A stretch of 43,314 nt of DNA from an uncultured bacterium. Its GTDB lineage: Bacteria; Cyanobacteriota; Cyanobacteriia; Thermostichales; Thermostichaceae. Shown here one piece after another: positions 1 through 43,314 of the stretch (positions are counted from its first letter, which is position 1; each line of letters opens with the position of its first letter). The position numbers and the translations under genes are program-made. The notes below the pieces were generated by a model, which saw nothing but the letters and a program-made list of their open reading frames with translations, was not told where the DNA came from and did no database searches. The stretch spans positions 17,072 to 60,385 of the forward strand of contig CAYSEO010000002.1 of NCBI GenBank assembly GCA_964429885.1, given 5' to 3'.

Positions 1-17
1 GGGATCAGGAGCGAGTT

Positions 18-326
18 ATGGCCCCACAGCGATGGACCGATGAGATGTTGGATCGTCAAGCTGAGCAGATCGCTGACGATCGGGCTCGTATGGCTGAGAG
101 GAGTCGGGAGATCGAGGCACTACTAGAGGGACAACGGATGTTGGTGCAGATCTATCAACAGGAGCACGAGGCTAGGGTGGAGGCGGATCGACGCTTTAAT
201 CGATTCATCGAGGAGCAACAGCGGATCAATCAAAGACTGGAGGCTGCAATCGAGAGACTAGACGCCACGATCGAGCGGCTAGAGCGGATCATCACCTTCC
301 GATCGGACAACGGTAACCTGGGTTAA
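18..326 (+). CDS. hypothetical coiled-coil protein (102 aa)
   Basis: ATG ORF preceded by AGGAG. The sequence is E/R/Q-rich and heptad-like (AIERLDATIERLERI). No catalytic motif recognised. Confidence 0.5.
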   Translation: MAPQRWTDEMLDRQAEQIADDRARMAERSREIEALLEGQRMLVQIYQQEHEARVEADRRFNRFIEEQQRINQRLEAAIERLDATIERLERIITFRSDNGNLG

Positions 327-422
327 GGCACTGGTCTCAGAGGATCTAAAGCACCGTGGCATTCCGTGGAGACGAACGGGAGAGAGTACCTTAGGATCGG
401 TGCCTGCCGCTAGAAGTTAAGG

Positions 423-1070
423 ATGGATTCGGTGGTGACCCAGGTAGGGGAGGATCTTGATCAACTGAACTCTGGATCTGAACAGCCGCATCCCTGTTGG
501 CTGGAGGTCTGGGTGGATCAGCCTAAACTGAGTGGTTGCTATACCTATCGTGTCCCCGCTCATTTGACGATCACCCCTGGTGACATCCTGGCGGTCCCCT
601 TCGGTAACCAGATGCTCAGTGCCATCGCCCTCCGGTTCATCCCGTCCCTACCTGCGGATCTACAGCCTACCCGGATCCGCTCTGTAGAGGAGGTGGTGGC
701 CGCCGGGATCCTGCCGCCGACATTTTGGCCTCTGTTGGAGAAGGTATCCAGCTACTATCTCACTCCCCTAGCCCAGGTCTTACGGACGGTATTGCCCACT
801 GGATTGCTGAGCCGCTCCCAGAAACGGATCCAGTTACAGACGGCTCCTGTGGTGGCGACGGGATTGTCCCACTCAGCCCAACAGATCCTGACTCTCCTGC
901 AACAGAAAAAGGGAGATCTCTCCTGGACCTATCTGAAACGCCAGATCCCCCAAGCCAGTCAGGGGGTGGTGGAGCTGATCCGGCAGGGCTGGGTGAGCAG
1001 TTACTGGCGCGAAAACTCAGGTCCACAACCCAAGCAACAGCAGGCGGTGACTCTTTGTCATGAGATCTGA
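423..1070 (+). CDS. priA: primosomal protein N-prime (PriA), N-terminal 3-prime-DNA-binding / winged-helix fragment; ends at an in-frame TGA
   Basis: PriA-like N-terminus (YTYRVP...GDILAVPFGNQMLSAIAL...YYLTPLAQVLRTVLP). It is in the same reading frame as ORF 1098..2891, separated only by TGA at 1068..1070. Confidence 0.75.
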   Translation: MDSVVTQVGEDLDQLNSGSEQPHPCWLEVWVDQPKLSGCYTYRVPAHLTITPGDILAVPFGNQMLSAIALRFIPSLPADLQPTRIRSVEEVVAAGILPPTFWPLLEKVSSYYLTPLAQVLRTVLPTGLLSRSQKRIQLQTAPVVATGLSHSAQQILTLLQQKKGDLSWTYLKRQIPQASQGVVELIRQGWVSSYWRENSGPQPKQQQAVTLCHEI

Positions 1071-1097
1071 GAGGATCTGAGCCCCCAGCAACGGGAG

Positions 1098-2891
1098 GTG
1101 CTCCTCTGTTTGAAACGGGCCGGGGGAGATCTATTACTGACGGAGCTGCTGGAGCGAATCAGTACCACCCGAGGCACAGTACAAGCCTTAGCCCGTAAGG
1201 GACGGGTCCAGATCAGTCAACGGCAGATCCTGCGTACCCTACAGGGGCCTGCGGTACCCTCCGATCAGCCCAAGGATCTAACCCCCGCTCAACAACAGGC
1301 GGTGACAGCGGTGGTGGAGACCTTGGATCGGGCTCAGACCTTTCTGCTCCATGGGGTAACGGGATCCGGCAAGACGGAGGTATACCTGCAGGTGATCGCG
1401 CAGGTATTGGCTCGGGGGCGATCTGCCCTGGTGTTGGTGCCCGAGATCGGTTTGACACCCCAGCTAACCGATCGGTTTCGAGCTCGGTTTGGATCCAAGG
1501 TATTGGTTTATCACAGTGGGTTATCAACAGGAGAGCGCTATGACACCTGGCGATCGATGCTTTCCTCCCAGCCTCAGGTGGTGGTGGGCACCCGTTCCGC
1601 CATCTTTGCTCCTTTGCCTCAACTGGGTCTGATCATCCTGGATGAGGAACATGATGATAGCTACAAACAGGATCAACCCCAACCCTGCTACCATGCCCGC
1701 ACCGTGGCCTATTGGCGCTCGATCCTCAGCCCCTGTCCCTTGATCCTGGGCAGCGCTACCCCTGCGGTGGAAACCTATGCTGCCAGTCTGAAAAACCGGA
1801 TCCAGCTCCTGATTCTCCCGGATCGGATCCCCAAAGCTGAGGGTGCTCCTCCCTCCATGCCCCCGATCAGCTTGGTGGATCTACGACTGGAGTTGGAGAA
1901 GGGCAATCGTTCCCCCTTCAGTCAATATTTACAGGAGGCCCTAGATCAGATCGCGGAACGACAGGAACAGGCGATCTTGTTTGTCCCCCGGCGGGGCTAC
2001 AGTACCTTCGTGCTCTGTCGCAGTTGCGGTGAACCTCTCAGCTGTGATCACTGTGATGTCTCCCTCACCTTCCACCAGACGGGCCAACATCTGCGCTGTC
2101 ATTACTGTGGTGATCGGCAGGTCTATCCCGATCACTGCCCCAGCTGTGGATCCCCCTATCTGAAACATTTCGGCAGTGGCACCCAACGCATCGAAGATCT
2201 GATGGCTCAACGCTGGCCCCAATTGCGGCTGCTCCGCTTCGATAGTGATACCACCAGTCGCAAAGGATCCCATCGAGAGATCCTGGATCGGTTCAATCAG
2301 GGGGAGGCGGATGTGTTAGTGGGCACCCAGATGTTGACCAAGGGCCTGGATGTACCTCAAGTCACCTTAGTGGGGGTCTTGGCTGCTGATGGGATCTTGA
2401 ATCAGGCGGACTTTCGGGCCGCTGAACGATCCTTTCAACTGCTGACCCAGGTAGCCGGACGAGCCGGACGGGGAGAACGAGCCGGACAGGTGATCATTCA
2501 AACCTATCTACCCGAACATCCCACCCTGCAATCGATCCGTAATTATGACTATGGGCAATTCATCACCCAGGAGCTCAGCCAACGTCAGGACAGTGGTTAT
2601 CCCCCCTACCGTAATCTGATCTTGATCCGACTCAGCAGTCCCGATCTCACTCGCCTACAACAGGGATGCCAACAAGTGCGGGAGCAACTAGAGGGTGTTC
2701 CGGCAGAGATCTTGGGGCCTTGCCCGGCTCAGGTGGAACGGGTGAGTGGACGCTATCGCTGGCAGATCCTCTTGAAGGAGTTGGACTCTGATCCTTGGCA
2801 ACGAGGCCGCTTAGCTCCCCAGTTGATGAGTTTGCGGGCACCGGCGGAAGTACGGATCAGCCTGGATGTGGATCCGTTGCGGATCCTGTGA
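1098..2891 (+). CDS. priA: primosomal protein N-prime (PriA), helicase core, Cys-rich zinc region and C-terminal domain
   Basis: Walker A GVTGSGKTEVY and DEEH box ILDEEHD. Cys cluster CRSCGEPLSCDHCDVSLTFHQTGQHLRCHYCGDRQVYPDHCPSCGS. Helicase motif GTQMLTKGLD. The frame continues upstream through EDLSPQQREV to the TGA at 1068. Reading 423..2891 as one frame gives 823 codons including the internal TGA and the terminal stop. Confidence 0.9.
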   Translation: MLLCLKRAGGDLLLTELLERISTTRGTVQALARKGRVQISQRQILRTLQGPAVPSDQPKDLTPAQQQAVTAVVETLDRAQTFLLHGVTGSGKTEVYLQVIAQVLARGRSALVLVPEIGLTPQLTDRFRARFGSKVLVYHSGLSTGERYDTWRSMLSSQPQVVVGTRSAIFAPLPQLGLIILDEEHDDSYKQDQPQPCYHARTVAYWRSILSPCPLILGSATPAVETYAASLKNRIQLLILPDRIPKAEGAPPSMPPISLVDLRLELEKGNRSPFSQYLQEALDQIAERQEQAILFVPRRGYSTFVLCRSCGEPLSCDHCDVSLTFHQTGQHLRCHYCGDRQVYPDHCPSCGSPYLKHFGSGTQRIEDLMAQRWPQLRLLRFDSDTTSRKGSHREILDRFNQGEADVLVGTQMLTKGLDVPQVTLVGVLAADGILNQADFRAAERSFQLLTQVAGRAGRGERAGQVIIQTYLPEHPTLQSIRNYDYGQFITQELSQRQDSGYPPYRNLILIRLSSPDLTRLQQGCQQVREQLEGVPAEILGPCPAQVERVSGRYRWQILLKELDSDPWQRGRLAPQLMSLRAPAEVRISLDVDPLRIL

Positions 2892-2958
2892 ACAGGCAAT
2901 CCATTATGGCCCGATCTGCGTACTCTCCTTAGAGCCCTATGTTCTACTAGGAGAGCTG

Positions 2959-3249
2959 ATGCCGCGTTTAATGGTAACCCAAAGAATCTTACGCCAGATC
3001 CATCGGGGATTGGCACCGATCCTGTTGCTGCCTGTGTTGATCACCCTCTGCAGTGGAGCGCTCTATCAGGTGGCTCTGTTAGGGCAACAGGCTGGGGATT
3101 ATTACTGGATCCTGCAGGTCCATCGAGGTCATTTCGGGATCATCAACTTAGAGACGGTTTTTCCCTTCCTCAATAGTTTTGGTTTGTTAGTGATGACTGG
3201 CAGCGGTATCTCCATGTGGATCCAGATGCAAAGAAAGCGAGGTGAATGA
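2959..3249 (+). CDS. small integral membrane protein (about 96 aa, two hydrophobic helices; possibly PepSY-associated TM-helix-like)
   Basis: ATG at 2959 preceded by AGGAGAG. Hydrophobic stretches LAPILLLPVLITLCSGALY and FPFLNSFGLLVMTGSGISMW. The ORF track extends to 2866, but that extension overlaps the priA 3-prime end. Confidence 0.55.
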   Translation: MPRLMVTQRILRQIHRGLAPILLLPVLITLCSGALYQVALLGQQAGDYYWILQVHRGHFGIINLETVFPFLNSFGLLVMTGSGISMWIQMQRKRGE

Positions 3250-4085: not shown

Positions 4086-4284
4086 AGAATCGACGGAGGT
4101 ACGGATCCCCAGCGGATCCCGTCGGACAGGCGGGATCTGGGAGACTATGTCAACGCTTGTCTACGGAAAAACTGATCTGTGCTTGCTTCCAGTGGTTATC
4201 GAGTTACGTAGTATCGCGGTTCTCCCTGTACGAGAAGTGATGGAATATGGGTAGGTTCCCGAGAAGAGTAAGGTATCCATACAG

Positions 4285-5172
4285 ATGGCAATGATCGGTG
4301 ATCTTGAGGACTTTGGATTGGCAGAGCTGTTACAAGTGATAGGGCGAGGCAGCAAGAGTGGTCAGCTCTCCGTTTGGACCCCTTCAGGTGTGTCTCACAT
4401 CTGGTTTTATCAAGGACGAGTGGTTGCAGCCTCGCCTCCAGGTGGACAACCGGATTTACAACAGCGACTGCAGCAAAACCCAGAGATCCAGGTTCAGTGT
4501 GGTGGATCTGCTGAACGGGTAGTGACCAAGCTAGCTAACCTCTGCGGTCCGAGCACCCACCCCTTGGGTGCCTGTGTGAGGAAGCAGGGGTTGATCTCAG
4601 GGGGGGGGTTGACCCTGGTGTTTCGTCAGCAACTTCAGGATGGGGTTTACCCCCTATTTGAGTTGGAGTCTGGGCAGTTTAACTTTAATGCCAAGGCTCC
4701 TATCCCTTATGGAGAGATGACGGGGTTGAGCAAGGAATGTTTGGATATTGCCATCGAGGGACTGCGCCGGGTCAAGAGCAGAGATCAACAGATCCGCAAC
4801 CTGCCGTCGGCTGAGGCCTGTTTCTGTCGCACTTCTGATGATCTTCCCCTCGCTAGACTTTCCCCTGTAGAGTGGAACGTGTGGGAAAGGGTTTCCCCCC
4901 ACCGACTGCTACAGGAGATTGCCCAGGAAATGGAGATCGATCTGCCCACCATTCAGTACACCTGTGGACGCTTGTTACAAGTGGGTTTGATTCAAGAGAC
5001 GGTCCATTCCTCGTCAGTTGCTCAGCCCTCAAAGGTCCCTGGTAGCTGGGAGGCTCTGGATGTGATCTCCTCTGACCCTGCAGAACCCGAGAGAGAGAAG
5101 GAACCCATCAACAGTTCCTTGCTCAATCGGCTGGCCTCAGCCCTACGTGGGATCCAGAAGAATAGGCGTTAA
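4285..5172 (+). CDS. DUF4388 / PATAN-domain protein
   Basis: N-terminus MIGDLEDFGLAELLQVIGRGSKSGQLSV matches the characteristic DUF4388/PATAN opening (G-L-x-F-x-L-x-E-L-L-Q). Contains a G9 tract at 4600..4608. Confidence 0.7.
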   Translation: MAMIGDLEDFGLAELLQVIGRGSKSGQLSVWTPSGVSHIWFYQGRVVAASPPGGQPDLQQRLQQNPEIQVQCGGSAERVVTKLANLCGPSTHPLGACVRKQGLISGGGLTLVFRQQLQDGVYPLFELESGQFNFNAKAPIPYGEMTGLSKECLDIAIEGLRRVKSRDQQIRNLPSAEACFCRTSDDLPLARLSPVEWNVWERVSPHRLLQEIAQEMEIDLPTIQYTCGRLLQVGLIQETVHSSSVAQPSKVPGSWEALDVISSDPAEPEREKEPINSSLLNRLASALRGIQKNRR

Positions 5173-5317
5173 GCCTAGCTTTGTTCCCGATCTCCTCGTT
5201 GCACCCAGTTGGAGGTCATGGAATCTGTATGAGTTGGAGCTACTAAATATTGAGATACAGTGCATCGTTATGGGCACGATATCTTGTTCGAAGTGCTGAC
5301 ATCACAGGAGGATAATT

Positions 5318-5686
5318 ATGCCAGACATGGCATCTTTGGAAGAACTACTCAGGAACTTTGTTTCTTCTACCCAGGATGTTGAGGGTGCTGCCATTGTGAC
5401 CCCGGATGGTCTTCCCTTGGCTTCCGTTTTACCTGCCGGGATGGACGAGGAGCGCACCTCAGCCATGTCCGCAGCCATGCTGTCCTTGGGAGAAAGGATT
5501 GGTAGAGAATTGGTGCGAGGCGGGATCGAACGGATCTTCGTACAGGGAGACAAGGGTTATGGAGTCCTGACCAGTTGTGGACAGGATACGGTGCTGTTGA
5601 CTCTTGCCAATGCCCAGGTCAAGCAGGGCCTCCTTTTCCTGGAGATCAAGCGGGTGAGTGAAAGCATATCTGTGGCGATGCGATAG
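5318..5686 (+). CDS. Roadblock/LC7 (MglB-like) domain protein
   Basis: Strong SD (ACAGGAGGATAATT-ATG). Sequence VEGAAIVTPDGLPLASVLPAGMDEERTSAMSAAMLSLGERIGRELVRGGIERIFVQGDKGYGVL is typical of Robl/LC7/MglB. Confidence 0.85.
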   Translation: MPDMASLEELLRNFVSSTQDVEGAAIVTPDGLPLASVLPAGMDEERTSAMSAAMLSLGERIGRELVRGGIERIFVQGDKGYGVLTSCGQDTVLLTLANAQVKQGLLFLEIKRVSESISVAMR

Positions 5687-5776
5687 CACTCCTCAGCAAT
5701 TCTGAATCGCCCATGATCGACAGAGCTGACTATTCTAGTCTTCCCAAGAAATTTCACATCATGACGGAGTTTGACA

Positions 5777-6328: not shown

Positions 6329-6383
6329 ATCCAGAGTTAGAAACGCCGATTCCGTTATCAGCAGTTGTTATCTCCCATGTTCC

Positions 6384-6929: not shown

Positions 6930-6999
6930 GAGAGAGATCCGTTCAGATCACTGCTATGGCTTCATTCTTCGCCATCCGGTAAGCTAAGAGCCGTTAGGC

Positions 7000-8064: not shown

Positions 8065-8130
8065 TTGATACGGAATGGGTGGACCTGTTGTCCTACCGTG
8101 AGGGATGCAGCGTTGCACAGGATCTACGGC

Positions 8131-9464: not shown

Positions 9465-10118
9465 TCAGGCATACTTAGCGATCTGTTCCTGTAGCCAGCG
9501 ATTAGCACCCTGGTTGCCCTCTTCCAGAGTATGGATCAGGGCTCCCTCTAGGACGGCAACGGGTAAGCCCAGTAGAGCGGCTGAGATCTCTGTAGGGTAA
9601 TAGCGCCCATCAGTACTGAGTTGAACGATAGAGGCTCGTAGACTGCCCAGATCAATGACCCAATATTCTTTTAAACCCAAGGCTGAATAGAGCTTTTTCT
9701 TGCCCAGATCTGAGATCAAAACATCATCCAATACCTCGACGATTAGATCTGGGGTACGATGCTGATTGAGATTCAGAGTAGTCTGACGATCTCGTTTCCA
9801 TTGCACGGCAGGATCCCCAATATAAACGACTTGATCAGGACAGGCCGCTTGTTGGTTGGGTTTCTCCAGATGACAGCGACGGTAGGCATTGAAACTCTGA
9901 TCTCGCCGGGTAAACCATTGGAAAAATAGACTGGGGAAGAGATCGTTGATCCGCACACAATTGAGACTCTGGGGGATCCGGTCGATCAGTAAATAACCCC
10001 GATGGAAGAAGAGTCTGGGATCCAAGTCTGGTAGATCTCGGATGCTCTCATAGGCATCCCAGGAGGCAGGTTGCCAGGTGGGTTGAAAGTTTGAGTCTGT
10101 AGGAATGGGAGCAGTCAT
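9465..10118 (-). CDS. Uma2-family (DUF820) putative endonuclease
   Basis: C-terminal PDLIVEVL...KKKLYSALGLKEYWVIDL pattern typical of the Uma2 restriction-endonuclease-like fold. Confidence 0.75.
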   Translation of the reverse strand: MTAPIPTDSNFQPTWQPASWDAYESIRDLPDLDPRLFFHRGYLLIDRIPQSLNCVRINDLFPSLFFQWFTRRDQSFNAYRRCHLEKPNQQAACPDQVVYIGDPAVQWKRDRQTTLNLNQHRTPDLIVEVLDDVLISDLGKKKLYSALGLKEYWVIDLGSLRASIVQLSTDGRYYPTEISAALLGLPVAVLEGALIHTLEEGNQGANRWLQEQIAKYA

Positions 10119-10120
10119 CT

Positions 10121-10690
10121 CTAGATCCAGACGAAGATCTCCTCCACTAAAGCACTAAACCCTGGCAGCAGAGGAGAGGTAAGGGTATCCCCTCCGATCA
10201 ACGTACTCTCTAACTGTAATTGAGCCTGGTGACGACGATAGATCTGTACCGTTTGTTGTTGCCAATTGACGATCCAATATTCCTGTACTCCCTGGCGAGA
10301 ATATAGCTTTAACTTGATCTCCTTATCCCGCTGCTCGTTCTGTTCTCCTGGAGAGAGGATCTCGATCACCAGATCTGGGGCCACCGTGAGATGACCTGCA
10401 GCATCCAATCCCTGCTCCAAAAGCTCTCGCCGGATCCAGATCACATCCGGGATCACGGCATCGTGGGGGCCGAGAATAAGGCCAGGGGTCTGAAAGGTTC
10501 TGCCCAGTTCGGTCTGATCTGACCAGCGTTCCAGGGACAAGCTCAGCCGCATGGCCACGCTTTGGTGACGTAAATGAGGAGATCGAGTCACGAACAGCTC
10601 TCCGTCAACGATCTCATACCGTTTCCAGCCGCCATCATCTGGCATCGCCTCCAGATCTCGGGTTGTCCAGCGTAGGGAAGGAGCCACCAT
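10121..10690 (-). CDS. Uma2-family (DUF820) putative endonuclease
   Basis: RYEIVDGELFVTRSPHLRHQ...PDLVIEILSPGEQNEQRDKEIKLKLYSRQGVQEYWIVN is the canonical Uma2 motif set. It lies 2 nt from the downstream paralog. Confidence 0.85.
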   Translation of the reverse strand: MVAPSLRWTTRDLEAMPDDGGWKRYEIVDGELFVTRSPHLRHQSVAMRLSLSLERWSDQTELGRTFQTPGLILGPHDAVIPDVIWIRRELLEQGLDAAGHLTVAPDLVIEILSPGEQNEQRDKEIKLKLYSRQGVQEYWIVNWQQQTVQIYRRHQAQLQLESTLIGGDTLTSPLLPGFSALVEEIFVWI

Positions 10691-14299: not shown

Positions 14300-14767
14300 C
14301 TATTCAGGCGAGACCTGGATCCGCAGCGTTGCGGTGACCTCGGGATGCAGGCGGACCTCCACAGGATACACCCCGGTCTTCTTCACCTCATCTTGCAGGG
14401 TGATGTTGCGCTTGTCGATGTCCAAACCACTGGTGGACAGGATCACCTCAGCGATGTTGTCAGAGGTCACTGTCCCGAACAGGGTCTCCTCATCCTCACC
14501 CACGGTCTTACGCACCACAAACCGACCAATGGTCTCCAGGGCGGTCTTGTAGGACTCAGCCTGCTGTTTCTCCGCGATCTTACGGGCGGCCTCCTGCTCC
14601 TCCCGCATCTTCTGCTCCTTGAGGATGCCTGGGGTGACCCGAGTGGCCATCTGGCGCGGAAACAGGTAGTTGCGGGCATATCCCGGCTTGACGCCCACCA
14701 CCTCACCCGGCTTACCCAGGTTGGGCACTTCCTCTCGTAGCAGCACCTGCATGTTGCGCTTGACCAT
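14300..14767 (-). CDS. rplI: 50S ribosomal protein L9
   Basis: MQVLLREEVPNLGKPGEVVGVKPGYARNYLFPRQMA is the L9 N-domain signature. The rplI-dnaB adjacency is also typical. Confidence 0.93.
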   Translation of the reverse strand: MVKRNMQVLLREEVPNLGKPGEVVGVKPGYARNYLFPRQMATRVTPGILKEQKMREEQEAARKIAEKQQAESYKTALETIGRFVVRKTVGEDEETLFGTVTSDNIAEVILSTSGLDIDKRNITLQDEVKKTGVYPVEVRLHPEVTATLRIQVSPE

Positions 14768-21932: not shown

Positions 21933-22698
21933 CTATTGATCCCTCACTAACGGTTTGCATCAGATCAGCAGCAGCCTTAGCCAGCCCGTGATCTTGATCT
22001 AGCGATCTGGAGCTTGCCCCTCAGTCCAGAACCCTGACTCTGCTCCCCGTATGGTGTTCCAGCACCCTCATCCTGCCACCTGAAACACCTCAGAGGTATC
22101 AACCGGATGATCGATCCCAGATCACGTTGAGCTCTATGAAATATCAAAGCCCAGATGGTTTCAAGACCGGATTGATCTTGAATAGTATACAGATCCACAG
22201 GATGACCTCCTGGCGCGGATCCCTGGTGTCACAAACAGAGGAGTTGAGGTATAGCGCTGCCCTAAACCTGCGAATAGGCAAACATATCGTGGCAGCAGAG
22301 CATTCTAGACTGAGTGATAAACATAGCCCTAGACCGGAGTTTAGACTACAACTTGAGATCCGGGCGGACAGTGAATGGACCCAAGATCACAAGCAATCCA
22401 TAAGATGTACAGTAAGAACATACCAGAAAGTTGTTGCGCCATCAACCTCCCTGAATCCAAAACTCCGGAGGATCCCGGTTTTCATTCGAGAATCGAGAAA
22501 AACCTACAATTAGACGTAGCCTGAACCCTGTGATCCCACCTATGCCTAGAATCGTCGTGGAGTTTAATGCGCGTTTAAGGTTGAATCTCAGATTCTATGC
22601 AGACTTCGCATCTACCTCAAGACAGAAGTTCAGGTTATGGAATCGGATCTTTTGCTCCATGCGGAGCCCAAAGATTCAGACCTGAGAGGGAGATCCGG

Positions 22699-22986
22699 TT
22701 AGCTGACATGCTTGAGGATCGCGTTGAGGTAGGCTTGTTCCAGGGTATGGCCCCAAGCGAACTGAGAGATGGAGCGGTGTTCTGGCAGGTAGGCCCAGCA
22801 GGGACCCTCGTGGGTGAAGAAATGACGCACCTCCCACCAGGATTCTCCCGGAGACACATCCTTAACCGCTCGCAGAAACCGACCCCGATGGCGGGCGATC
22901 CGTTCCTCCACGAAATAGGGTCCACAGAGGCTAAGTTCCTCGATGGCTGCAACGAACTCCGAGCGGGCTTTAGGATAGCGGGCCAT
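22699..22986 (-). CDS. hypothetical protein (95 aa)
   Basis: ATG at 22986 preceded by AGGAGA at suitable spacing. No recognised motif. It sits in an otherwise gene-poor 1.27-kb interval. Confidence 0.4.
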   Translation of the reverse strand: MARYPKARSEFVAAIEELSLCGPYFVEERIARHRGRFLRAVKDVSPGESWWEVRHFFTHEGPCWAYLPEHRSISQFAWGHTLEQAYLNAILKHVS

Positions 22987-23257
22987 TGGGCTGTTCTCCT
23001 CTCGATAGGTACAACAGGTCCCAGCCGGGAACCGACTCTCGACCATGGATGAATTGCTCGCCATTATAGGATCTGAGATCCTGAGTCGATCCCCCTAGGC
23101 AGCCCCAGTCACAGAGAGAGATCGACAGATCCCCCATGGGATCAGGCTCAGGGGCTAAGATCCTGGGAGTCTGTAGAGATCCTGTAGTTTTCGTCGAGTT
23201 GTCATGGACCCCTCTCAGTAACTGGACCACAGCGCCACTACCCCCCCTCGGCCTGAC

Positions 23258-29130: not shown

Positions 29131-29441
29131 TACGCCTGATCCGGGCGTCTCAATCGGAGTGGCGACTGCAATAACTCTTAGACCTGTGCGGGAGTCATCG
29201 TGTCTGTCTGCTCAATTTGGGACTCTGATCTGGCCTGGGGAGAGCTAAGCTGCTTGCCGAGATAGAGGGGGAACTGGATCCTGAGCTAACTTCGGATCTC
29301 ACAGGGCTTGGTTTACAGTGATAGGACAGCCTGATCACGGGCTGCTTCGCAGATGTATGGATGGGGGGTCGATCTGAACTCCGACTCGATCTGATCCTCT
29401 GACCGACCCCATCGCTCTCTGTCGTGCCGCAAGGAACCTCC

Positions 29442-31355
29442 ATGACTATCGCAACCGCTCCTTTCCCCATTGATCTGGATGCCTACCAACGGATCAGCCT
29501 CGATCCGGCCACTACCACCCTCACCCCCGAACAGAAACAGGCGCTGCGGGCCAACATTCAGCTGTGTCGGGATACCATCGTCTTCTTCACCGCCACGGGC
29601 GCAGCGAAGGGCTTGGGGGGACATACCGGAGGTCCCTACGACACGGTGCCGGAGGTGATGATCCTGGATGCTCTATTCCGGGGTAAGCCCGAGGCTTTTG
29701 TGCCGATCTTCTTTGATGAGGCGGGACACCGGGTGGCGACCCAGTATCTCATGTCAGCTCTGGATGGCGATCTGCCCCTGGAAAAGCTGGTGCATTATCG
29801 GGAGGCCCATCACCATCTGCCGGGACACCCAGAGAAGGGGTTGACCCCTGGGGTGAAGTTTAGCTCCGGTCGTCTCGGTCACATGTGGCCCTATGTCAAC
29901 GGTGTGGCTCTGGCTAATCCTGGCAAAGCGGTGTTTTGTCTCGGATCGGACGGATCTCAGCAGGAGGGTAATGATGCGGAGGCGGCTCGTCTGGCTGTAG
30001 CCCAACACCTGAATGTCAAGCTGCTGATCGATGACAACGATGTCACCATTGCTGGACATCCCTCTAACTACCTGCCGGGATTTAGTGTGGCTCAGACGTT
30101 GCGGGGCCATGGGCTAACGGTTCTAGAGGGGGATGGTGAGGATCTGGACGGCCTCTACCAGCGCATCTGTCAAGCGATCGAGACACCGGGGCCGGTGGCT
30201 GTGATCTGCAAGCGCAAGATGTCTGTGGGCATTGAGGGCATTGAAGGATCTACCCATGGCCATGATGTGATCCCTTTGGATAAAGCATTGACCTTCCTGG
30301 AGTCTCGGGGCCGAACGGAGGCGGTCGAGTATCTCAAGAGCCTGGAGAAGCCCAAGAATCCCTATACCTTCATGGGATCTAGCAGCAATGTGGGCTCTAA
30401 CCGCAATATCTTTGGCGATACGGTGGTCAAGATCCTGGGTCGCATGAGTGAGACGGAGCGCAAAGAGAAGGTGTTGGTGGTGGACAACGATCTGGAAGGA
30501 TCCTGTGGGCTGAAACAGATCCGACAGGCTCACCCAGAGGTGTTCATCAGCGGCGGCATCATGGAGCGGGGCAACCTATCTGCTGCGGCTGGCTTTGGCA
30601 TGGAGCAGGGCAAGCAAGGCATCTATGCCACCTTTAGTGCCTTCTTAGAGATGGTGGTGTCTGAAATCACCATGTCTCGTCTCAATTACTCCAACATTCT
30701 CTGTCATTTCTCCCATGCTGGGGTGGATGATATGGCGGACAATACCTGTCACTTCGGCATCAATAATATGTTTGCCGATAACGGCTTGGATGATGGCCAC
30801 GAGACTCGCCTGTATTTTCCTGGGGATGGTCATCAGATGGCGGCTTGTGTGGAGGCGATCTTCAATGATCCGGGCCTGCGATTTATCTTCTCCACCCGCT
30901 CTAAGGTGCCCTACATTCTGGATGAATCGGGCAAGGAGTTCTTTGGTGAGGGCTATACCTTTACCCCCGGCAAGGATGAGGTGATCCGGGAAGGAACGGC
31001 AGGTTACATTGTCGCCTTTGGGGATGCTCTGTATCGCTCGGTGGATGCAGTGGAGCGCCTCAAGCAACAGGGAATCAGCGTAGGACTGATCAACAAGCCC
31101 ACTCTAAATGTGGTGGATGAGGACATGATTGCCAAGATCGGGACCTCTGGGTTTGTGCTGGTGGTGGAGCCCTTCAACCGGCGCACAGGTCTAGGCAGCC
31201 GTTTTGGCTCCTGGCTACTGGAGCGGGATCTGACGCCGAAATATGCTTACCTGGGCACTTACCGAGAAGGATCCGGTGGTCTTTGGGAGCAGTACCCCCA
31301 CCAGGGCATCGATCCGGACAGCATCATGGCTAAGGTGAAGCAGCTAGCGGGCTAG
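29442..31355 (+). CDS. transketolase-family protein (divergent, about 637 aa)
   Basis: GGHTGGPYD in place of the canonical SGHPG. ThDP-binding GSDGSQQEGNDAEAARLA...LIDDNDVTIAG. Pyrimidine-binding and C-terminal domains are present. ATG at 29442 follows AAGGAACC. Confidence 0.85.
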   Translation: MTIATAPFPIDLDAYQRISLDPATTTLTPEQKQALRANIQLCRDTIVFFTATGAAKGLGGHTGGPYDTVPEVMILDALFRGKPEAFVPIFFDEAGHRVATQYLMSALDGDLPLEKLVHYREAHHHLPGHPEKGLTPGVKFSSGRLGHMWPYVNGVALANPGKAVFCLGSDGSQQEGNDAEAARLAVAQHLNVKLLIDDNDVTIAGHPSNYLPGFSVAQTLRGHGLTVLEGDGEDLDGLYQRICQAIETPGPVAVICKRKMSVGIEGIEGSTHGHDVIPLDKALTFLESRGRTEAVEYLKSLEKPKNPYTFMGSSSNVGSNRNIFGDTVVKILGRMSETERKEKVLVVDNDLEGSCGLKQIRQAHPEVFISGGIMERGNLSAAAGFGMEQGKQGIYATFSAFLEMVVSEITMSRLNYSNILCHFSHAGVDDMADNTCHFGINNMFADNGLDDGHETRLYFPGDGHQMAACVEAIFNDPGLRFIFSTRSKVPYILDESGKEFFGEGYTFTPGKDEVIREGTAGYIVAFGDALYRSVDAVERLKQQGISVGLINKPTLNVVDEDMIAKIGTSGFVLVVEPFNRRTGLGSRFGSWLLERDLTPKYAYLGTYREGSGGLWEQYPHQGIDPDSIMAKVKQLAG

Positions 31356-36066: not shown

Positions 36067-36211
36067 TCATGATCGGTGATCTGTTTATTAGCTGAGCAGA
36101 TTACTCAAGACAGAATCGTTAAATCGGATACGAGAGGCAGGATTAGGGAATGACGCAGGCCAACCCATCGATGGCTGCTAGTACTCGCCTCAGAGCACCT
36201 ATCGCTTGATA

Positions 36212-36275
36212 AGTAGTATCGGCAAAATTGCTTTGATATACAGTATAGAGTCTGTATAAACGTTTTTGCTGATCT
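36212..36275 (+). repeat. dispersed 66-bp element, copy C (promoter points antisense into 36315..36974)
   Basis: AGTAGTATCGGCAAAATTGCTTTGATATACAGTATAGAGTCTGTATAAACGTTTTTGCTGATCT. TTGATA (36233..36238) and TATAAA (36255..36260) are separated by 16 nt. Confidence 0.75.
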
Positions 36276-36314
36276 CCTTATCGGGTTCTCGGTGAACCAT
36301 AGATCTTCCCCCGA

Positions 36315-36974: not shown

Positions 36975-37049
36975 TGCCTCCTAAAGTGATTGCCTGGTTC
37001 CAGACTTCCCTACCTTTACCTCAAGGCTATCTGCTTTACCCCTTCAATC

Positions 37050-39830: not shown

Positions 39831-40025
39831 GACTAGGACGGATCGGCAGGGCTGAAAGGGCAACAATAACAGGGGGGGCCTTTATTGGTGCTCATTATAA
39901 CTTAGGGGAAACGTCCCTTTCTCAGCGGTTTCCGTGTTACCTTTTGCCTGCCCCGATCTGAGCCGAACCCTTGTACCTCTCTTCCCGAGCTAGTGTGACC
40001 TAAATGTCTCTATGGGAAACATTTC

Positions 40026-41192
40026 GTGATGATCAGCACCGCTCTGGACCTCGGGAGAGTTGAGGATCTGATGGCATCCTCTGTGGGTCAGGTCTTCCCC
40101 TGTGGGCAACTCCAGATCCATTGGCAGGATCAGGTGATCTGCTCGCAAGCTTATGGTCAACTTCAGGTGGATCACCCCTGCACGCCACAACATCAGTTCG
40201 ATATCGCCTCGATCACCAAACTTTTCACCGCCACAGCTTGGCTCCGGCTCGCCTCCCAGAGAGATCTGGATCTGGAGGGATCGGTACAGCTACTTTTGCC
40301 TGAGATCGCCACTCCCCGACCGCTGGGTTCCTACGAGGATCCCCTACACCCCGGCCAATGGATCACCCTCTCCCCTCAGACAGACCCCATGGAGCTTATC
40401 GATCCTCAACAGCTCACCTGGCGGCAGTTGCTCACCCATAGCTCTGGCTTGCCTCCTTGGCGTCCCCTGTTTCGCTGTCCCAATCGGCAAGCGGCGGTTG
40501 AGATGGCCCTGGGCACCTGCTTCAGTTACCCACCGGGCACGCAGGTGCGTTACAGCGATATTGGCCTGATCTGGATCGGTCTGGCCCTAGAACGGCTGAC
40601 AGAGATGCCCCTCGATCAAGTCATCCAATCCCAGGTGATCGAACCCTTAGGTCTAAAGGACACGGGGTTTCGACCCGTCTCTGATGATCCGATCCCCCAA
40701 CCCTTGCATTGGGATCCTGTGGACTCCATCGCGGCCACGGAGGACTGTCGCTGGCGAGGCAGACGGATCCGGGGCGAGGTTCATGATGAGAACGGGGCTC
40801 GTCTCGGGGGAGTGGCGGGTCATGCGGGCTTGTTCTCCACCGCTGCCGATCTGGCTCGCTTCGGTCAGTGCTTTCTGTCTGGGGGCTTGCCGCTCCTCGA
40901 TCTCTCCACTCGGGATCAGATGATCCAACCCCATGCCGAACAGGGGGATCACCGTCGGGGACTGGGGTTCGCGCTGCGATCTGCTCACCCTGAGGCCAGT
41001 AGCTTTCCTCTCAGCGCAGGAGCCTACGGACACACCGGCTTTACGGGCACCTCCCTCTGGATCGATCCCCATCATTCTCTGGTGGTTGCCTGTCTCACCA
41101 ACAGCATCTACTACGGACGAGATCACAGCGGGATCTTGCCCTTTCGGGTAGCCCTACATGAGGCCATTGTGTCAGCCCTAGAAATCCTCTAA
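40026..41192 (+). CDS. serine hydrolase, beta-lactamase/transpeptidase-like (class C / esterase family)
   Basis: SxxK motif ASITKLF, YSD (YxN position) and HTG (KTG position) in YGHTGFTGTS. Confidence 0.85.
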   Translation: MMISTALDLGRVEDLMASSVGQVFPCGQLQIHWQDQVICSQAYGQLQVDHPCTPQHQFDIASITKLFTATAWLRLASQRDLDLEGSVQLLLPEIATPRPLGSYEDPLHPGQWITLSPQTDPMELIDPQQLTWRQLLTHSSGLPPWRPLFRCPNRQAAVEMALGTCFSYPPGTQVRYSDIGLIWIGLALERLTEMPLDQVIQSQVIEPLGLKDTGFRPVSDDPIPQPLHWDPVDSIAATEDCRWRGRRIRGEVHDENGARLGGVAGHAGLFSTAADLARFGQCFLSGGLPLLDLSTRDQMIQPHAEQGDHRRGLGFALRSAHPEASSFPLSAGAYGHTGFTGTSLWIDPHHSLVVACLTNSIYYGRDHSGILPFRVALHEAIVSALEIL

Positions 41193-41663
41193 CAGGGGAC
41201 CCAGACGGGCTAGGACCGGATCCGCCTCTTTGGGTTGAGGAGCGGGCTGAGAGGGGGTTGCCTGCCCAGATCCTGCGGCCAATGCATCCACCCGAGAGGC
41301 CAATTGGACCAGATCGGACTCCAATTGGTTGAGCCGGTCTGCCTCAGGAGCCAAGGACTGCAGACGTTCCTCCAAGGCTGCGATCTGCCGCTTCAGCTCC
41401 CCTAGGGTTTCCAGATCCGTGGCATCTGAGCCAGGCACATGTCCGTTCTCTGGGGAAGCCTCGGCCTGTTGCATGTACTGTTGGACCACATGTTTACAGA
41501 GGTCGCTAAAGCTGGAGAAAGAGGACTCTGAGAGAAACTCCTCGATAGAGGTGAGCAGCTCCTGTTCGGTCTCCAGATCGAAGGTCACCGACTTGCTGGA
41601 TTTGGTCGGGACGCGTTGGGTTGAGGTGCGACTGGATCGGCTGGAACGACGGGATTGTGCCAT
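41178..41663 (-). CDS. ParR-like adaptor candidate: basic N-terminus, short beta-strand/helix segment and C-terminal coiled coil (161 aa)
   Basis: SRRSSRSSRTSTQRVPTKSSKSVTFDLETEQELLTSIEEFL (possibly ribbon-helix-helix-like), then LGELKRQIAALEERLQSL...LNQLESDLVQLASRVDAL. It lies 31 nt downstream of the ParM-like gene. Confidence 0.5.
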   Translation of the reverse strand: MAQSRRSSRSSRTSTQRVPTKSSKSVTFDLETEQELLTSIEEFLSESSFSSFSDLCKHVVQQYMQQAEASPENGHVPGSDATDLETLGELKRQIAALEERLQSLAPEADRLNQLESDLVQLASRVDALAAGSGQATPSQPAPQPKEADPVLARLGPLLEDF

Positions 41664-41694
41664 AGAGATCCTCAGGTAACAACTAATGCAAAGC

Positions 41695-42753
41695 TTAGGT
41701 CGATTCCGCTGCTGCCGGTCGGAGATTCATCTTATGCAACTGCATCTCACCGTAGAGGAACTGACCCAGGACATTGGCCTTACGAGAGGGATCCGCCAGG
41801 TGAGCTTTCAGATTGGCCTCCTCCATTAACGGCAACAGCTCCTCCCAGAAAAAGGCCCCACCACCCCCTGTGATGATGACCTCTGTGGCCCGTTCCGGCA
41901 ACCAGTTCAACAGGCGACCCGAGATATCGTTGGCGAAATTACGCTTCAGGGTGGGCAAGATCTCGTCTAGATTGGTGGGCTTTTTGGCCCCGCGGGGACG
42001 ATATAACCGTTCTCCCTTGGGCTTATGGACTGCAGCGATCAGGGATAGGGATTGGGCATCTGCCCCCTCGATTTGGTTGGCCACCAGCTCGTAGAACTGA
42101 CTCATAGCAAACCCCTCACTGGAGGAGGCCCCTCGGGCAAACCGGAACCGATCCACCATCAAAAAATCTGTGGTCTGATGACCGATATCGACGATGGCCA
42201 CGGACAGATCCTTGAAGCTAACTCCCTTCTCCCCCTGAGCCTCAGCCCACAACAGACTGCCATAGCCCTCCGGTACCACCCACACCTCTGGAATAGAGAC
42301 GGTGATGGGATTACCTCGAAACATCATCTGGTGTTTACGCAGGATCAGCTGAGTGATCTCGGTTTTCTCCTGCTCAAACTTTTCCTGAGAGAGATAGGGA
42401 ATGCCTAACACCACCATCACCTCATCGTGGACATGGAGGAGTCCAATACAAGCCAACATCCGCACCAGAGCATCCTGCACTTTCGAGCGTCCGATACCTA
42501 GATCCGCCTGTAGGTCTGCGGCTAACTGGCCCACGGCGTAGTAATCGTTGCGGTATTCCAACCAGATATCCAGTAAAGGATCGGTGGATTGTTCGTCAAA
42601 TCCCCCATGGCTGATCTCAGAGGAGGTTCCCTGCTTGACGTTAGCGGGCACCAGGATCACCTGTTCAGGATCGCGGTTGATGCAGGCCTTAGAGGAGGTG
42701 CGGCCCAGATCGATACTCAGCAGGTAGGGGGACGCGGATGGTGATGAACTCAT
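41695..42753 (-). CDS. actin-like ATPase of the ParM/StbA type
   Basis: Phosphate-1 LLSIDLGRTSSK, phosphate-2 AIVDIGHQTTDF and adenosine motif VIITGGGGAFF. The connect region VVPEGYGS is also ParM-like. Confidence 0.75.
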   Translation of the reverse strand: MSSSPSASPYLLSIDLGRTSSKACINRDPEQVILVPANVKQGTSSEISHGGFDEQSTDPLLDIWLEYRNDYYAVGQLAADLQADLGIGRSKVQDALVRMLACIGLLHVHDEVMVVLGIPYLSQEKFEQEKTEITQLILRKHQMMFRGNPITVSIPEVWVVPEGYGSLLWAEAQGEKGVSFKDLSVAIVDIGHQTTDFLMVDRFRFARGASSSEGFAMSQFYELVANQIEGADAQSLSLIAAVHKPKGERLYRPRGAKKPTNLDEILPTLKRNFANDISGRLLNWLPERATEVIITGGGGAFFWEELLPLMEEANLKAHLADPSRKANVLGQFLYGEMQLHKMNLRPAAAEST

Positions 42754-42898
42754 AGGATCGAACGGACCTCCAGATCGCCAGCGAGATAATTGCCTGACTC
42801 GTTCCCAATTATTCCATTAGATCTGGGTTTGACCAGACGGAATTGAGCAGCAAGTCCGATTTCCTAGAATAACCTTATCGGGCTAGGGTCTTACACCC

Positions 42899-43282
42899 TT
42901 AGGCTTTGCCATCGGGATACAGCCGGATCAGTCCCTTCCGAGCGGCATTGTGAACCTCTAGAGGGGCGTCGCTGCGTAACAGTTGACGATACAGGGCCTC
43001 AGCGGTCTCTAGGCTGCCCAGTTCCCGATGTTGATCTGCCATCTCCAGTAATCGATGCACACTGGGGCTCTCCCCCTGGGTCTGTAGGACTCGGATCTCC
43101 TCCAATCGCTCCAACACCATAGGCCGGAGGGTGAGGGTCCCATCCAGATCCAGCACCTCCCGGTAAAAGCGTTGGGCCTCTCGATACTGCTCTTGTTCGT
43201 CGTAAGCTTCCGCCAACTGGAGGGCGATCTCGGCAATATGAGGGGTGGCTCGATCCAGAAACTGTCGATGTAAGGCATCCAT
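42899..43282 (-). CDS. TPR-like helical repeat protein (127 aa)
   Basis: Helix-turn-helix repeats such as ALQLAEAYDEQEQYREAQRFYREVLDLD and LETAEALYRQLLRSD. Same strand as the ParM-like gene and upstream of it. Confidence 0.5.
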   Translation of the reverse strand: MDALHRQFLDRATPHIAEIALQLAEAYDEQEQYREAQRFYREVLDLDGTLTLRPMVLERLEEIRVLQTQGESPSVHRLLEMADQHRELGSLETAEALYRQLLRSDAPLEVHNAARKGLIRLYPDGKA

Positions 43283-43314
43283 GCGACGGCTGAGGGGGGT
43301 GCCCTTGTGGGGCT

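What the first reader, a model, noticed from the sequence alone, without database searches (positions are those of the whole stretch)
1..43314. Strong over-representation of GATC across the window, with gene-specific troughs
The enrichment comes from hand counts. An unbiased sequence of this composition should carry a given 4-mer about once per 250-270 bp.

Regions at the high background density:
- 1..300: 10 GATC
- 1081..1680 (priA): 15
- About 1.5 to 1.7 per 60 nt in the Uma2 genes

Regions with clearly lower density:
- rplI, 14341..14760: 2
- Roadblock gene, 5318..5686: 3
- DUF4388 region, 4141..5280: 14
- ParM-like gene, 41701..42720: 13
- Transketolase stretch, 30601..30900: 2

Flanking bases vary (GGATCC, AGATCT, CGATCG, TGATCA, GGATCA and others). 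The enriched unit therefore appears to be the tetramer itself, not the classical cyanobacterial HIP1 octamer GCGATCGC, which I did not notice at a comparable frequency.

The enrichment reaches into coding sequence in all three frames (codon pairs such as GAG-ATC, GGA-TCC, xxG-ATC). That implies a drive or selection acting on DNA rather than on protein. The troughs could mark highly expressed genes or more recently acquired DNA.
Basis: seen in the sequence. Interest (0 to 1): 0.65.

Follow-up and report, generated by a model that had tools for sequence, protein, structure and literature searches.

The report
GATC tetramer saturating a cyanobacterial genome
This stretch of a cyanobacterial chromosome carries the 4-base palindrome GATC once every 46 bases, filling about 72% of the places where it fits without changing a protein; this looks like an extreme tetramer form of the "highly iterated palindromes" of cyanobacteria, whose origin is still unexplained.

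Summary
GATC occurs 944 times in 43,314 nt (21.8/kb, O/E 5.7) and is by far the top 4-mer. HIP1 (GCGATCGC) occurs 0 times.

Codon or amino-acid usage does not explain it:
- Synonymous shuffles give 544±13 GATC in CDS against 846 observed (z=24).
- GAT is 93% of Asp codons before C but 57% before A/T.
- Intergenic DNA is equally enriched (O/E 6.2).

One parameter fits both compartments: a log-odds bonus of about 1.8 per GATC. GATC fills 72% of synonymously available sites. The unit is the bare tetramer, because flanks follow the dinucleotide background.

The "gene-specific troughs" are not beyond chance. Counts per 250–1000 nt are Poisson or under-dispersed, and density tracks the number of permissive dipeptides (r=0.81).

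The window belongs to a Thermostichales-related cyanobacterium. Its closest relative (PriA 86% identical) shows the same saturation. More distant relatives enrich GGATCC/GGGATCCC, the known Thermostichus HIP variant, at lower density.

Best reading: a lineage-specific, site-level fixation bias toward GATC, a tetramer-level HIP. It is probably tied to GATC methylation and biased repair, but that link is inferred; no methyltransferase could be examined.

The parts
1..43314 (.). Chromosomal segment uniformly saturated with the palindrome GATC (944 copies, 21.8/kb; 8.7% of all bases lie inside a GATC)
   Evidence: Exact counts and nulls. Density is 21.4/kb in CDS and 23.5/kb in intergenic DNA. 846 of 1171 synonymously available sites are occupied.
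9465..10690 (-). Two tandem Uma2-family genes, among the densest stretches (26 and 28 GATC/kb; occupancy 0.68 and 0.94)
   Evidence: The low density is explained by amino-acid sequence; occupancy is 3/5.
5189..5524 (.). Second-longest GATC-free gap (335 nt), covering an intergenic spacer and the 5' half of the Roadblock/LC7 gene
   Evidence: The expected maximum gap for an exponential distribution is about 314 nt, so this is not significant.
30518..30857 (.). Longest GATC-free gap (339 nt), inside the transketolase-family gene (29424-31355, occupancy 0.57)
22597..23052 (+). ORF with no family hit and the lowest occupancy (4 of 13 available sites, p=0.002). It may be a mis-called ORF or younger DNA.
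21933..22126 (.). Example of a non-coding spacer with 8 GATC in 194 nt. Intergenic DNA as a whole has 94 GATC against 15.2 expected.
   Evidence: intergenic shuffles give 15.1±3.7, maximum 30.

Best explanation
The window comes from a Thermostichales-related cyanobacterium whose genome is under a uniform, site-level fixation bias in favour of the tetramer GATC. Every position that can become GATC is favoured by roughly e^1.8, about 6-fold in odds, whether it is coding or not.

Shown here:
- GATC has filled about 72% of the places where it is synonymous.
- It has reshaped codon usage: GAT is 80% of Asp codons and ATC is 83% of Ile codons.
- It has begun to push amino-acid sequences in weakly constrained proteins.
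- It makes up 8.7% of the DNA.
- The bias is DNA-level and flank-independent. It is shared with the closest relative and graded across the clade.

Inferred:
- This is the tetramer-level end member of the cyanobacterial 'highly iterated palindrome' (HIP) phenomenon. Sister lineages enrich GGATCC/GGGATCCC around the same GATC core.
- The most likely engine is the near-universal cyanobacterial GATC adenine methyltransferase (DmtA/Dam type) coupled to a repair or gene-conversion step that resolves mismatches in favour of the strand carrying a methylatable GATC. This is a molecular ratchet of the kind Elhai proposed for HIPs, here with specificity relaxed to the 4-bp core.
- If the sites are methylated, about 9.7% of all adenines would be m6A.
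For: A real effect that is not codon usage:
- O/E is 5.7.
- Synonymous-shuffle z is 24 and codon-order-shuffle z is 26.

Context dependence:
- GAT is 93% of Asp codons before C but 56-58% before A/T.
- ATC is 91% of Ile codons after G but 67-75% otherwise.
- The preceding codon ends in G 82% of the time before ATC but 36-42% elsewhere.
- Leu after Asp is CTN 129 times and TTR 6 times.
- Odds ratios are 6.7 (Ile) and 10.5 (Asp).

One parameter fits both compartments:
- A Gibbs model with a bonus S per GATC reproduces the 846 CDS sites at S of about 1.8.
- Intergenic ln(O/E) is 1.82 (94 observed against 15.2 expected).

The unit is the tetramer: flanks are within 0.62-1.52 of background, and GAT[^C] has O/E 1.17.

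Placement is essentially random: gap CV is 0.87, the maximum gap is 339 nt against 314 expected, there is no 10-11 nt period, and the pair-correlation ratio is 0.86-1.02.

The property belongs to the lineage:
- The closest relative L081 (PriA 86% identical over the helicase part; an independent Logan assembly) has O/E 5.5, 21/kb and occupancy 0.68.
- Relatives at 64-69% PriA identity have O/E 2.0-4.0, with GGATCC making up about 30-45% of their GATC.
- 80 other cyanobacterial loci range from 0.01 to 2.6 and carry HIP1 at about 1/kb.

Amino-acid-level push:
- PriA has 9.4 permissive dipeptides per 100 aa against 7.0±0.7 in 118 orthologues.
- 13 of the 16 sites made possible only by window-specific residues are occupied.

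Literature:
- GGGATCCC replaces HIP1 in Thermostichus (Synechococcus OS-A/B') at 1.2-1.3/kb.
- DmtA is present in almost all cyanobacteria outside the picocyanobacteria.
- Elhai proposed a methyl-directed mismatch-repair ratchet.
- Sources: PMC4390886; PMC5861425.
Against: - No DNA methyltransferase, MutH/Vsr-like nuclease or GATC restriction gene lies in the window or in the fetched relatives' loci. The rest of the genome could not be read, so the methylation link is untested.
- Elhai's ratchet was framed for G-5mC sites and predicts saturation near 1 site/kb. The density here is about 20 times higher.
- Depletion of one-off neighbours is not confined to the T:G-type neighbour expected of very-short-patch repair. 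GATT/AATC is depleted about 5-fold, GACC about 6-fold, and transversion neighbours 2-3-fold.
- Occupancy is somewhat lower when another GATC lies within 20 nt (0.66 against 0.79). A strictly independent per-site drive does not predict this.
- Sequence data alone cannot separate a neutral drive from weak selection with the same coefficient.
Confidence: 0.5

Rival explanations
1. Natural selection for function. Dense (methylated) GATC is itself useful, for example for chromosome structure, replication or repair timing, or self-marking. Each extra site then gives a small fitness gain (Ne·s of order 1).
For: - The HIP1 and GGGATCCC motifs of other cyanobacteria are more conserved between genomes than control motifs, which Xu et al. 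read as selection (PMC5861425).
- Here 47 of the 48 window GATC at sites that are synonymously possible in both genomes are also GATC in L081, whereas 4-fold sites outside GATC are only 53% identical.
- Occupancy drops slightly when another GATC is within 20 nt, a hint of diminishing returns.
Against: - Placement is Poisson-like, with no spacing rule or periodicity.
- Coding and intergenic DNA show the same log-odds, so there is no sign of regulatory targeting.
- With an equilibrium occupancy of about 0.8, a neutral drive also predicts about 89% shared sites, so the conservation test is weak.
- No known function needs a site every 46 bp.
Confidence: 0.25
2. DNA-uptake or recombination drive. 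The cell's transformation or recombination machinery prefers GATC-rich (or GATC-methylated) DNA, so GATC-bearing alleles spread by biased uptake. This is how uptake sequences (DUS/USS) accumulate.
For: - The accumulation is uniform, weak per site and genome-wide in both coding and non-coding DNA, which is the signature expected of an uptake-type drive.
- A 2026 preprint links HIP1 to horizontal-transfer machinery (10.64898/2026.06.24.733823).
Against: - A 4-mer carries too little information to be a specific uptake tag.
- Known uptake sequences are 9-12 nt, non-palindromic and occur at about 1/kb.
- No competence genes or uptake data were examined here.
Confidence: 0.1
3. Very-short-patch-type repair tied to a cytosine-methylating GATC enzyme. 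Deamination-type T:G mismatches in GATT/AATC contexts are always repaired to GATC, which inflates the site (the way Vsr/Dcm inflates CCWGG in E. coli; that comparison rests on my own knowledge, no paper was read for it).
For: GATT/AATC is about 5-fold depleted in context. ATT is 5% of Ile codons after G but 26% otherwise. A at 4-fold third positions is 3% before ATC but 16% elsewhere.
Against: - GACC, which would need C-to-T at position 3, is depleted just as strongly. GAC is 7% of Asp codons before C but 43% before A/T. Transversion neighbours are depleted too.
- A T:G-only repair cannot produce these patterns.
- The VSP effect in E. coli is much smaller (my own knowledge).
Confidence: 0.08
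4. By-product of amino-acid and codon usage or of base composition, with no motif-level process.
For: - A maximal-order Markov model gives O/E of only 1.23.
- High-GC bacteria reach a mononucleotide O/E of 3-4.8 largely through G-ending codons followed by ATC.
Against: - Synonymous and codon-order shuffles fall far short (z=24 and 26).
- Codon choice depends on the neighbouring base.
- Intergenic DNA is enriched 6.2-fold.
- GAT (T-ending) and ATC (C-ending) are both about 80% while AAT/AAC and TTT/TTC are about 50/50.
- GAT and ATC outside GATC are near expectation.
- The Markov result is circular, because GAT and ATC counts are dominated by GATC itself.
Confidence: 0.02

Closest known systems
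GGGATCCC, the alternative highly iterated palindrome of Thermostichus (Synechococcus sp. JA-3-3Ab / JA-2-3B'a) (Elhai 2015, PMC4390886; Xu et al. 2018, PMC5861425)
   Same: - Same clade: the best named PriA hits are Thermostichus.
- Same GATC core.
- HIP1 is absent.
- The motif is present in all frames and in non-coding DNA.
- It is shared between related genomes.
- Thermostichus-type loci fetched here show it (26 GGGATCCC in about 20 kb).
   Different: - Here the enriched word is the bare 4-mer, and GGGATCCC occurs only 7 times in 43 kb.
- Density is 21.8/kb against 1.2-1.3/kb.
- All 16 flanks are used roughly as background predicts.
- Synonymous sites are about 72% saturated and codon usage is visibly reshaped.
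HIP1 (GCGATCGC) of most cyanobacteria
   Same: - A palindrome built on GATC that overlaps the DmtA (GATC) methylation site.
- Genome-wide over-representation that codon usage does not explain.
- The proposed origin is a methylation-linked repair ratchet.
   Different: - HIP1 is an 8-mer at about 0.3-2.5/kb, said to be quasi-periodic and under selection. It is absent here (0 copies).
- GATC here is Poisson-placed and 10-40 times denser.
- In Elhai's Table S4, GATC O/E is 0.16-1.37 in the roughly 60 rows I read. How that column was calculated is unclear.
Dam/GATC usage in Escherichia coli and relatives (methyl-directed mismatch repair, SeqA)
   Same: The same 4-bp palindrome, which is the target of an orphan adenine methyltransferase.
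   Different: In E. coli GATC is near its expected frequency of about 1 per 250 bp (my own knowledge). No MutH or SeqA homologue was looked for or seen here.
DNA uptake sequences (Neisseria DUS, Haemophilus USS)
   Same: Short words spread through coding and non-coding DNA by a weak, genome-wide drive rather than by local function.
   Different: Uptake sequences are 9-12 nt, non-palindromic and occur at about 1/kb (my own knowledge). A 4-mer cannot act as a specific tag except through its density.

Membership tests
Highly iterated palindromes (HIP class, Elhai 2015 / Xu 2018) | A palindromic oligomer strongly over-represented relative to base composition and to codon usage | tested here: met
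   O/E is 5.7. Synonymous-shuffle z is 24 and codon-order-shuffle z is 26.
Highly iterated palindromes (HIP class, Elhai 2015 / Xu 2018) | Alternative HIPs occur in genomes where HIP1 is low or absent | tested here: met
   GCGATCGC occurs 0 times in 43 kb, against about 1/kb in 80 other cyanobacterial loci.
Highly iterated palindromes (HIP class, Elhai 2015 / Xu 2018) | A GC-rich (at least 75% GC) 5- to 8-mer at roughly 1-2 copies per kb | tested here: not met
   The word is a 4-mer with 50% GC at 21.8/kb. No longer word stands out beyond its flank background.
Highly iterated palindromes (HIP class, Elhai 2015 / Xu 2018) | Enriched in all three reading frames and in non-coding DNA | tested here: met
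   Frame counts are 325, 79 and 442. Intergenic O/E is 6.2.
Highly iterated palindromes (HIP class, Elhai 2015 / Xu 2018) | Motif copies conserved between related genomes more than control positions | tested here: inconclusive
   In priA, 47 of 61 window GATC are shared with L081, and 47 of 48 at jointly permissive sites, against 53% identity at 4-fold sites. With an equilibrium occupancy of about 0.8, a neutral drive predicts nearly the same result.
Highly iterated palindromes (HIP class, Elhai 2015 / Xu 2018) | Quasi-periodic spacing along the chromosome (Xu 2018) | tested here: not met
   Gaps are close to exponential (CV 0.87). The index of dispersion is 0.72-1.03. The only periodicity is the 3-nt coding one.
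Highly iterated palindromes (HIP class, Elhai 2015 / Xu 2018) | A methyltransferase recognising (part of) the word is encoded in the genome | not testable with these tools
   There is no DNA methyltransferase in the window or in the relatives' loci. The window's own genome is not retrievable. DmtA is reported to be near-universal in cyanobacteria.
Very-short-patch (Vsr-type) repair-driven site enrichment | Selective depletion of the deamination product of the site (here GATT/AATC) relative to other one-off neighbours | tested here: not met
   GATT/AATC is depleted about 5-fold, but GACC is depleted about 6-fold and transversion neighbours 2-3-fold.
DNA uptake sequences (DUS/USS) | A 9-12 nt non-palindromic word at about 1/kb | tested here: not met
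   The enriched unit is a 4-bp palindrome with background flanks.

The most novel reading that the evidence does not exclude
A self-reinforcing, site-level molecular drive has pushed a 4-bp methylation site to near-saturation in one cyanobacterial lineage. The engine would be a GATC-recognising nicking, repair or conversion activity whose specificity relaxed from GGATCC to GATC. It would turn about 10% of adenines into potential m6A and measurably rewrite codon usage and protein sequences. The genome would then be a natural experiment in which the long-debated origin of HIP palindromes (drive or selection) can be measured directly, with a per-site coefficient of about 1.8.
Probability: 0.2. 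Interest if true: 0.85.

Novelty: new variant of a known kind. Interest (0 to 1): 0.62.

Why it matters
Highly iterated palindromes were described in cyanobacteria three decades ago. It is still unknown whether they are made by a repair ratchet, kept by selection, or both.

This lineage makes the effect much easier to measure. The bias acts on the minimal 4-bp core, at a density that yields hundreds of informative sites per gene cluster. That allows several measurements:
- The strength of the bias can be estimated (log-odds about 1.8, the same in coding and non-coding DNA).
- Its cost can be seen in reshaped codon usage and extra Asp-X and X-Ile dipeptides.
- Its specificity can be compared across a graded series of relatives (GGGATCCC, GGATCC, GATC).

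Two practical points follow. Tetranucleotide-based binning and codon-usage models will behave oddly on such genomes. If the sites are methylated, the DNA would be among the most heavily adenine-methylated known. GATC-cutting enzymes that tolerate the methylation state would cut it into roughly 46-bp pieces, and those blocked by that state would not cut it at all.

Tried and rejected
- **Own contig:** the exact-protein look-up found nothing for the window's own proteins, so the rest of the genome, including its methyltransferases, could not be examined.
- **Genome scan:** It gave 80 cyanobacterial loci that serve as background but no close relative.
- **Metagenome scan:** the scan with PriA matched a universal helicase motif. 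It returned only distant PriA (38-48% identity) from unrelated bacteria, useful only as a general background. Median GATC O/E there is 1.35; the maximum is 4.78 in a 70% GC, 4.8-kb contig.
- **PCC 7336:** its PriA was not on record.
- **Helical phasing and clustering:** I looked for a 10-11 nt phase or clustering of GATC and found none.
- **Longer motif or repeat family:** I looked for one behind the tetramer and found none. The top 8-mers occur at most 21 times and simply reflect the common codons CAG/CTG next to GATC.
- **tRNA genes:** none are present in the window.
- **Elhai's Table S4:** its GATC O/E column (0.16-1.37 in the rows read) is not consistent with the 5- and 6-mer frequencies in his Table S3. 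I did not use it as a quantitative baseline.
- **Literature:** searches for an earlier description of tetramer-level GATC hyper-abundance in cyanobacteria found none. These searches cover only the held library.
Full report
**1. Observation**

GATC occurs 944 times in 43,314 nt, one per 45.9 nt. From base composition (55.1% GC) 165 are expected, so O/E is 5.71. A first-order Markov model gives 2.65. The maximal-order model gives 1.23, but that model is circular here because 64% of all GAT and ATC trinucleotides lie inside GATC.

GATC is the top tetramer by a wide margin, and the runners-up are its overlaps. GCGATCGC (HIP1) is absent. GATC covers 8.7% of the bases in the window. If all sites carried m6A, 9.7% of adenines would be methylated.

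**2. Is it more than codon and amino-acid usage?**

I called 46 non-overlapping ORFs, most of them confirmed by Pfam.
- GATC density is 21.4/kb in CDS and 23.5/kb in the 4.0 kb of intergenic DNA.
- Shuffling synonymous codons within each gene, which keeps the protein and the gene's own codon usage, gives 544±13 GATC against 846 observed (z=24). Shuffling codon order gives 405±17 (z=26). These nulls are conservative, because the codon usage they preserve is itself distorted.
- GAT is 80% of Asp codons and ATC is 83% of Ile codons, yet AAT/AAC and TTT/TTC are about 50/50.

Codon choice depends on the neighbouring base:
- GAT is 93% of Asp codons when the next base is C and 56-58% when it is A or T.
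- ATC is 91% of Ile codons after G and 67-75% otherwise.
- A codon with a synonymous G-ending option ends in G 82% of the time before ATC and 36-42% elsewhere.
- Leu after Asp is CTN 129 times and TTR 6 times.
- When the first codon of a Gly-Ser or Arg-Ser pair is GGA, CGA or AGA, the Ser codon is TCN in 79 of 81 cases.

Of 1171 dipeptide positions where GATC can be written synonymously, 846 (72%) carry it.

**3. One parameter fits everything**

I estimated baseline codon usage from codons that cannot take part in a GATC. I then sampled synonymous sequences with a weight e^S per GATC. The observed 846 is reproduced at S of about 1.8 (S=0 gives 461; S=1.8 gives 855±13).

Intergenic DNA has 94 GATC against 15.2 expected (shuffles 15.1±3.7, maximum 30), so ln(O/E)=1.82. 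Direct odds ratios agree: 6.7 for Ile ATC:ATT after G against non-G, and 10.5 for Asp GAT:GAC before C against A/T. The same DNA-level bias therefore acts in coding and non-coding sequence.

**4. The unit is the tetramer**

All 16 NGATCN hexamers are present (35-94 copies each). Each lies at 0.62-1.52 of what the bases flanking other G's and C's predict. CGATCG is lowest simply because CpG is depleted (0.70). GAT not followed by C has O/E 1.17, and ATC not preceded by G has O/E 1.25. No repeat family or longer word lies behind the signal.

**5. Placement and the 'troughs'**

- Gaps between sites are close to exponential (mean 45.9, CV 0.87).
- The two longest gaps (339 nt at 30518-30857 and 335 nt at 5189-5524) match the 314 nt expected for the maximum.
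- Counts per 250, 500 and 1000 nt have an index of dispersion of 0.72, 0.88 and 1.03, so they are not over-dispersed.
- The pair-correlation ratio is 0.86-1.02 from 5 to 300 nt, with only the 3-nt coding period.
- Across genes, density follows the density of permissive dipeptides (r=0.81). rplI has 5 such sites (3 filled) and Roadblock has 6 (3 filled).
- Occupancy heterogeneity is modest (chi2 71 on 45 df, p=0.008). It is lower in the DUF4388 gene (0.52), the transketolase-family gene (0.57) and the ParM-like gene (0.54). It is lowest in the unannotated ORF 22597-23052 (0.31).

The troughs are therefore mostly amino-acid composition plus sampling, not marks of expression or recent acquisition.

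One small unexplained effect remains. Occupancy is 0.66 when another GATC lies within 20 nt and 0.79 otherwise (z is about 4.9 by my own arithmetic from those counts, not a tool result).

**6. Whose genome, and how widespread?**

The window is ordinary chromosome: priA, an intein-bearing dnaB, rplI, lpxD, a pabB/pabC fusion, aminotransferases, an IPMS-like gene, a GAF histidine kinase, Uma2 genes and others.

The best named PriA relatives are Thermostichus species (65-67% identity), then Synechococcus sp. PCC 7336 (62%). The source is therefore a Thermostichales-related cyanobacterium. Its own record is masked.

| Comparison set | GATC O/E | Other features |
|---|---|---|
| L081, closest relative (PriA 86%, independent Logan assembly) | 5.5 (21/kb) | All flanks used; occupancy 0.68; intergenic O/E 4.8 |
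| L082, L087, L088, L089 (PriA 64-69%) | 2.8-4.0 | GGATCC is about 32-44% of GATC; occupancy 0.37-0.56 |
| L085 (Thermostichus MAG) and L086 (unnamed Cyanobacteriota MAG, PriA 63%) | 2.0-2.5 | 26 GGGATCCC each |
| L083, L084, L037 (46% GC lineage) | about 2.5 | Flank-independent |
| 80 other cyanobacterial loci | 0.01-2.6 | HIP1 at about 1/kb |
| 80 loci from unrelated bacteria | median 1.35 | Maximum 4.78 (13/kb, occupancy 0.52) in a 70% GC contig |

The window and L081 are thus the extreme of a graded, clade-wide tendency centred on the GATC core.

**7. Turnover and cost**

In priA the window has 61 GATC and L081 has 62; 47 are shared. At the 58 positions permissive in both genomes, 47 are GATC in both, 5 in one only and 6 in neither. 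Four-fold sites outside GATC are 53% identical (chance 30%).

Of 16 positions permissive only because of a window-specific residue, 13 are GATC. The window's PriA has 9.4 permissive dipeptides per 100 aa against 7.0±0.7 in 118 orthologues. The other high values belong to relatives whose DNA is also GATC-rich.

In the strongly conserved transketolase-family protein the excess is small (7.3 against 6.8±0.4). Its occupancy is still 0.57 against 0.17 in orthologues. The bias therefore leaks into protein sequence where constraint is weak.

**8. What is known**

- Elhai (2015) surveyed 97 cyanobacterial genomes. HIP1 and a few alternative HIPs occur at about 0.5-2.5/kb. GGGATCCC replaces HIP1 in Synechococcus OS-A/B' at 1.16-1.35/kb. 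GATC is 'generally underrepresented' in groups A and B. A GATC methyltransferase (DmtA) is present in almost all cyanobacteria outside the picocyanobacteria. He proposed that a methyl-directed mismatch-repair ratchet creates HIPs, saturating near 1/kb.
- Xu et al. (2018) found HIP1 and GGGATCCC conserved and quasi-periodic, and argued for selection.
- A 2026 preprint on 389 genomes again treats only octamers, and notes that HIP1 is absent from Thermostichales.
- I found no description of tetramer-level GATC saturation.

**9. Mechanism**

Shown: a uniform, flank-independent, lineage-specific fixation bias of about e^1.8 per GATC acts at the DNA level.

Inferred: it belongs with the HIP phenomenon and is driven through GATC methylation coupled to biased mismatch correction or gene conversion.

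Against a pure very-short-patch mechanism, all one-off neighbours are depleted, not only GATT/AATC. Against selection for spacing or regulation, placement is Poisson-like and the strength is equal in intergenic DNA. Weak selection for sheer density cannot be excluded, and the slight deficit of very close pairs would fit it. No methyltransferase or nuclease could be examined, so this step remains untested.

**10. Verdict**

This is a new, extreme variant of a known kind of genome feature. It is interesting mainly because it makes the HIP origin question quantitatively testable.

Noticed in passing
window 423-2891 (stop at 1068-1070): priA is split by an in-frame TGA (…TGT CAT GAG ATC TGA GAG GAT CTG…). 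The upstream ORF (423-1070) encodes the 3' DNA-binding domain and the downstream ORF (1098-2891) the helicase. The TGA aligns with a Cys codon (TGC) in L081 and with a Cys in L082. It could be a nonsense mutation, a sequencing error or a read-through site. It lies between two GATC.
   Followed up: partly
window 12495-14267 (-): The replicative helicase DnaB carries an intein: Pfam Intein_splicing hits lie inside DnaB_C, and the protein is 590 aa.
   Followed up: no
window 1-43314: CG-containing palindromic tetramers are strongly depleted (CGCG O/E 0.21, ACGT 0.28, GCGC 0.33). CpG is 0.70 and TpA is 0.63. This may reflect restriction avoidance or a CpG-directed process, separate from the GATC excess.
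   Followed up: no
L021 (MAG Scytonematopsis contorta HA4267-MV1), whole locus: This locus shows the opposite extreme: a single GATC in 21.9 kb (O/E 0.01). It resembles the GATC avoidance Elhai ascribed to a GATC restriction enzyme in Calothrix PCC 7103.
   Followed up: no
L082, L088, L089 (Thermostichales-related MAG or metagenome contigs): These relatives enrich the hexamer GGATCC (3.6-6/kb, about 32-44% of all GATC) with few full GGGATCCC (2-11). This is a hexamer-level stage between the known octamer HIP variant and the bare tetramer of the window.
   Followed up: partly
window 9465-10690 (-); L081 3548-4174 (-): Two Uma2-family (PD-(D/E)XK-like 'putative restriction endonuclease') genes sit in tandem. 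The relative also has one next to priA. Their function is unknown, and any link to GATC is pure speculation.
   Followed up: no
window 22597-23052 (+): This ORF has no Pfam or NCBIfam hit and overlaps antisense ORFs. It has the lowest GATC occupancy (4 of 13) and 8.8 GATC/kb. It may be mis-called or relatively young DNA.
   Followed up: partly
window-wide (all potential GATC sites in CDS): A potential site is filled less often when another GATC lies within 20 nt (0.66, n=587) than when the nearest is farther away (0.79, n=584). This mild negative interference is not predicted by an independent per-site model.
   Followed up: partly
L160 (Ga0310810_10055845, 4.8 kb, 70% GC, unrelated bacterium): GATC O/E is 4.8 (13/kb), with a synonymous-shuffle ratio of 1.8 and occupancy 0.52. 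GATC excess beyond codon usage also exists, at a lower level, outside cyanobacteria.
   Followed up: partly
window 41178-41663 (-) and 41695-42753 (-): An FcmC-like 'filament morphology membrane protein' hit (NCBIfam, 79 bits, below the 90-bit cutoff) lies next to the ParM/Alp-like actin gene. This may be a cell-shape gene pair.
   Followed up: no
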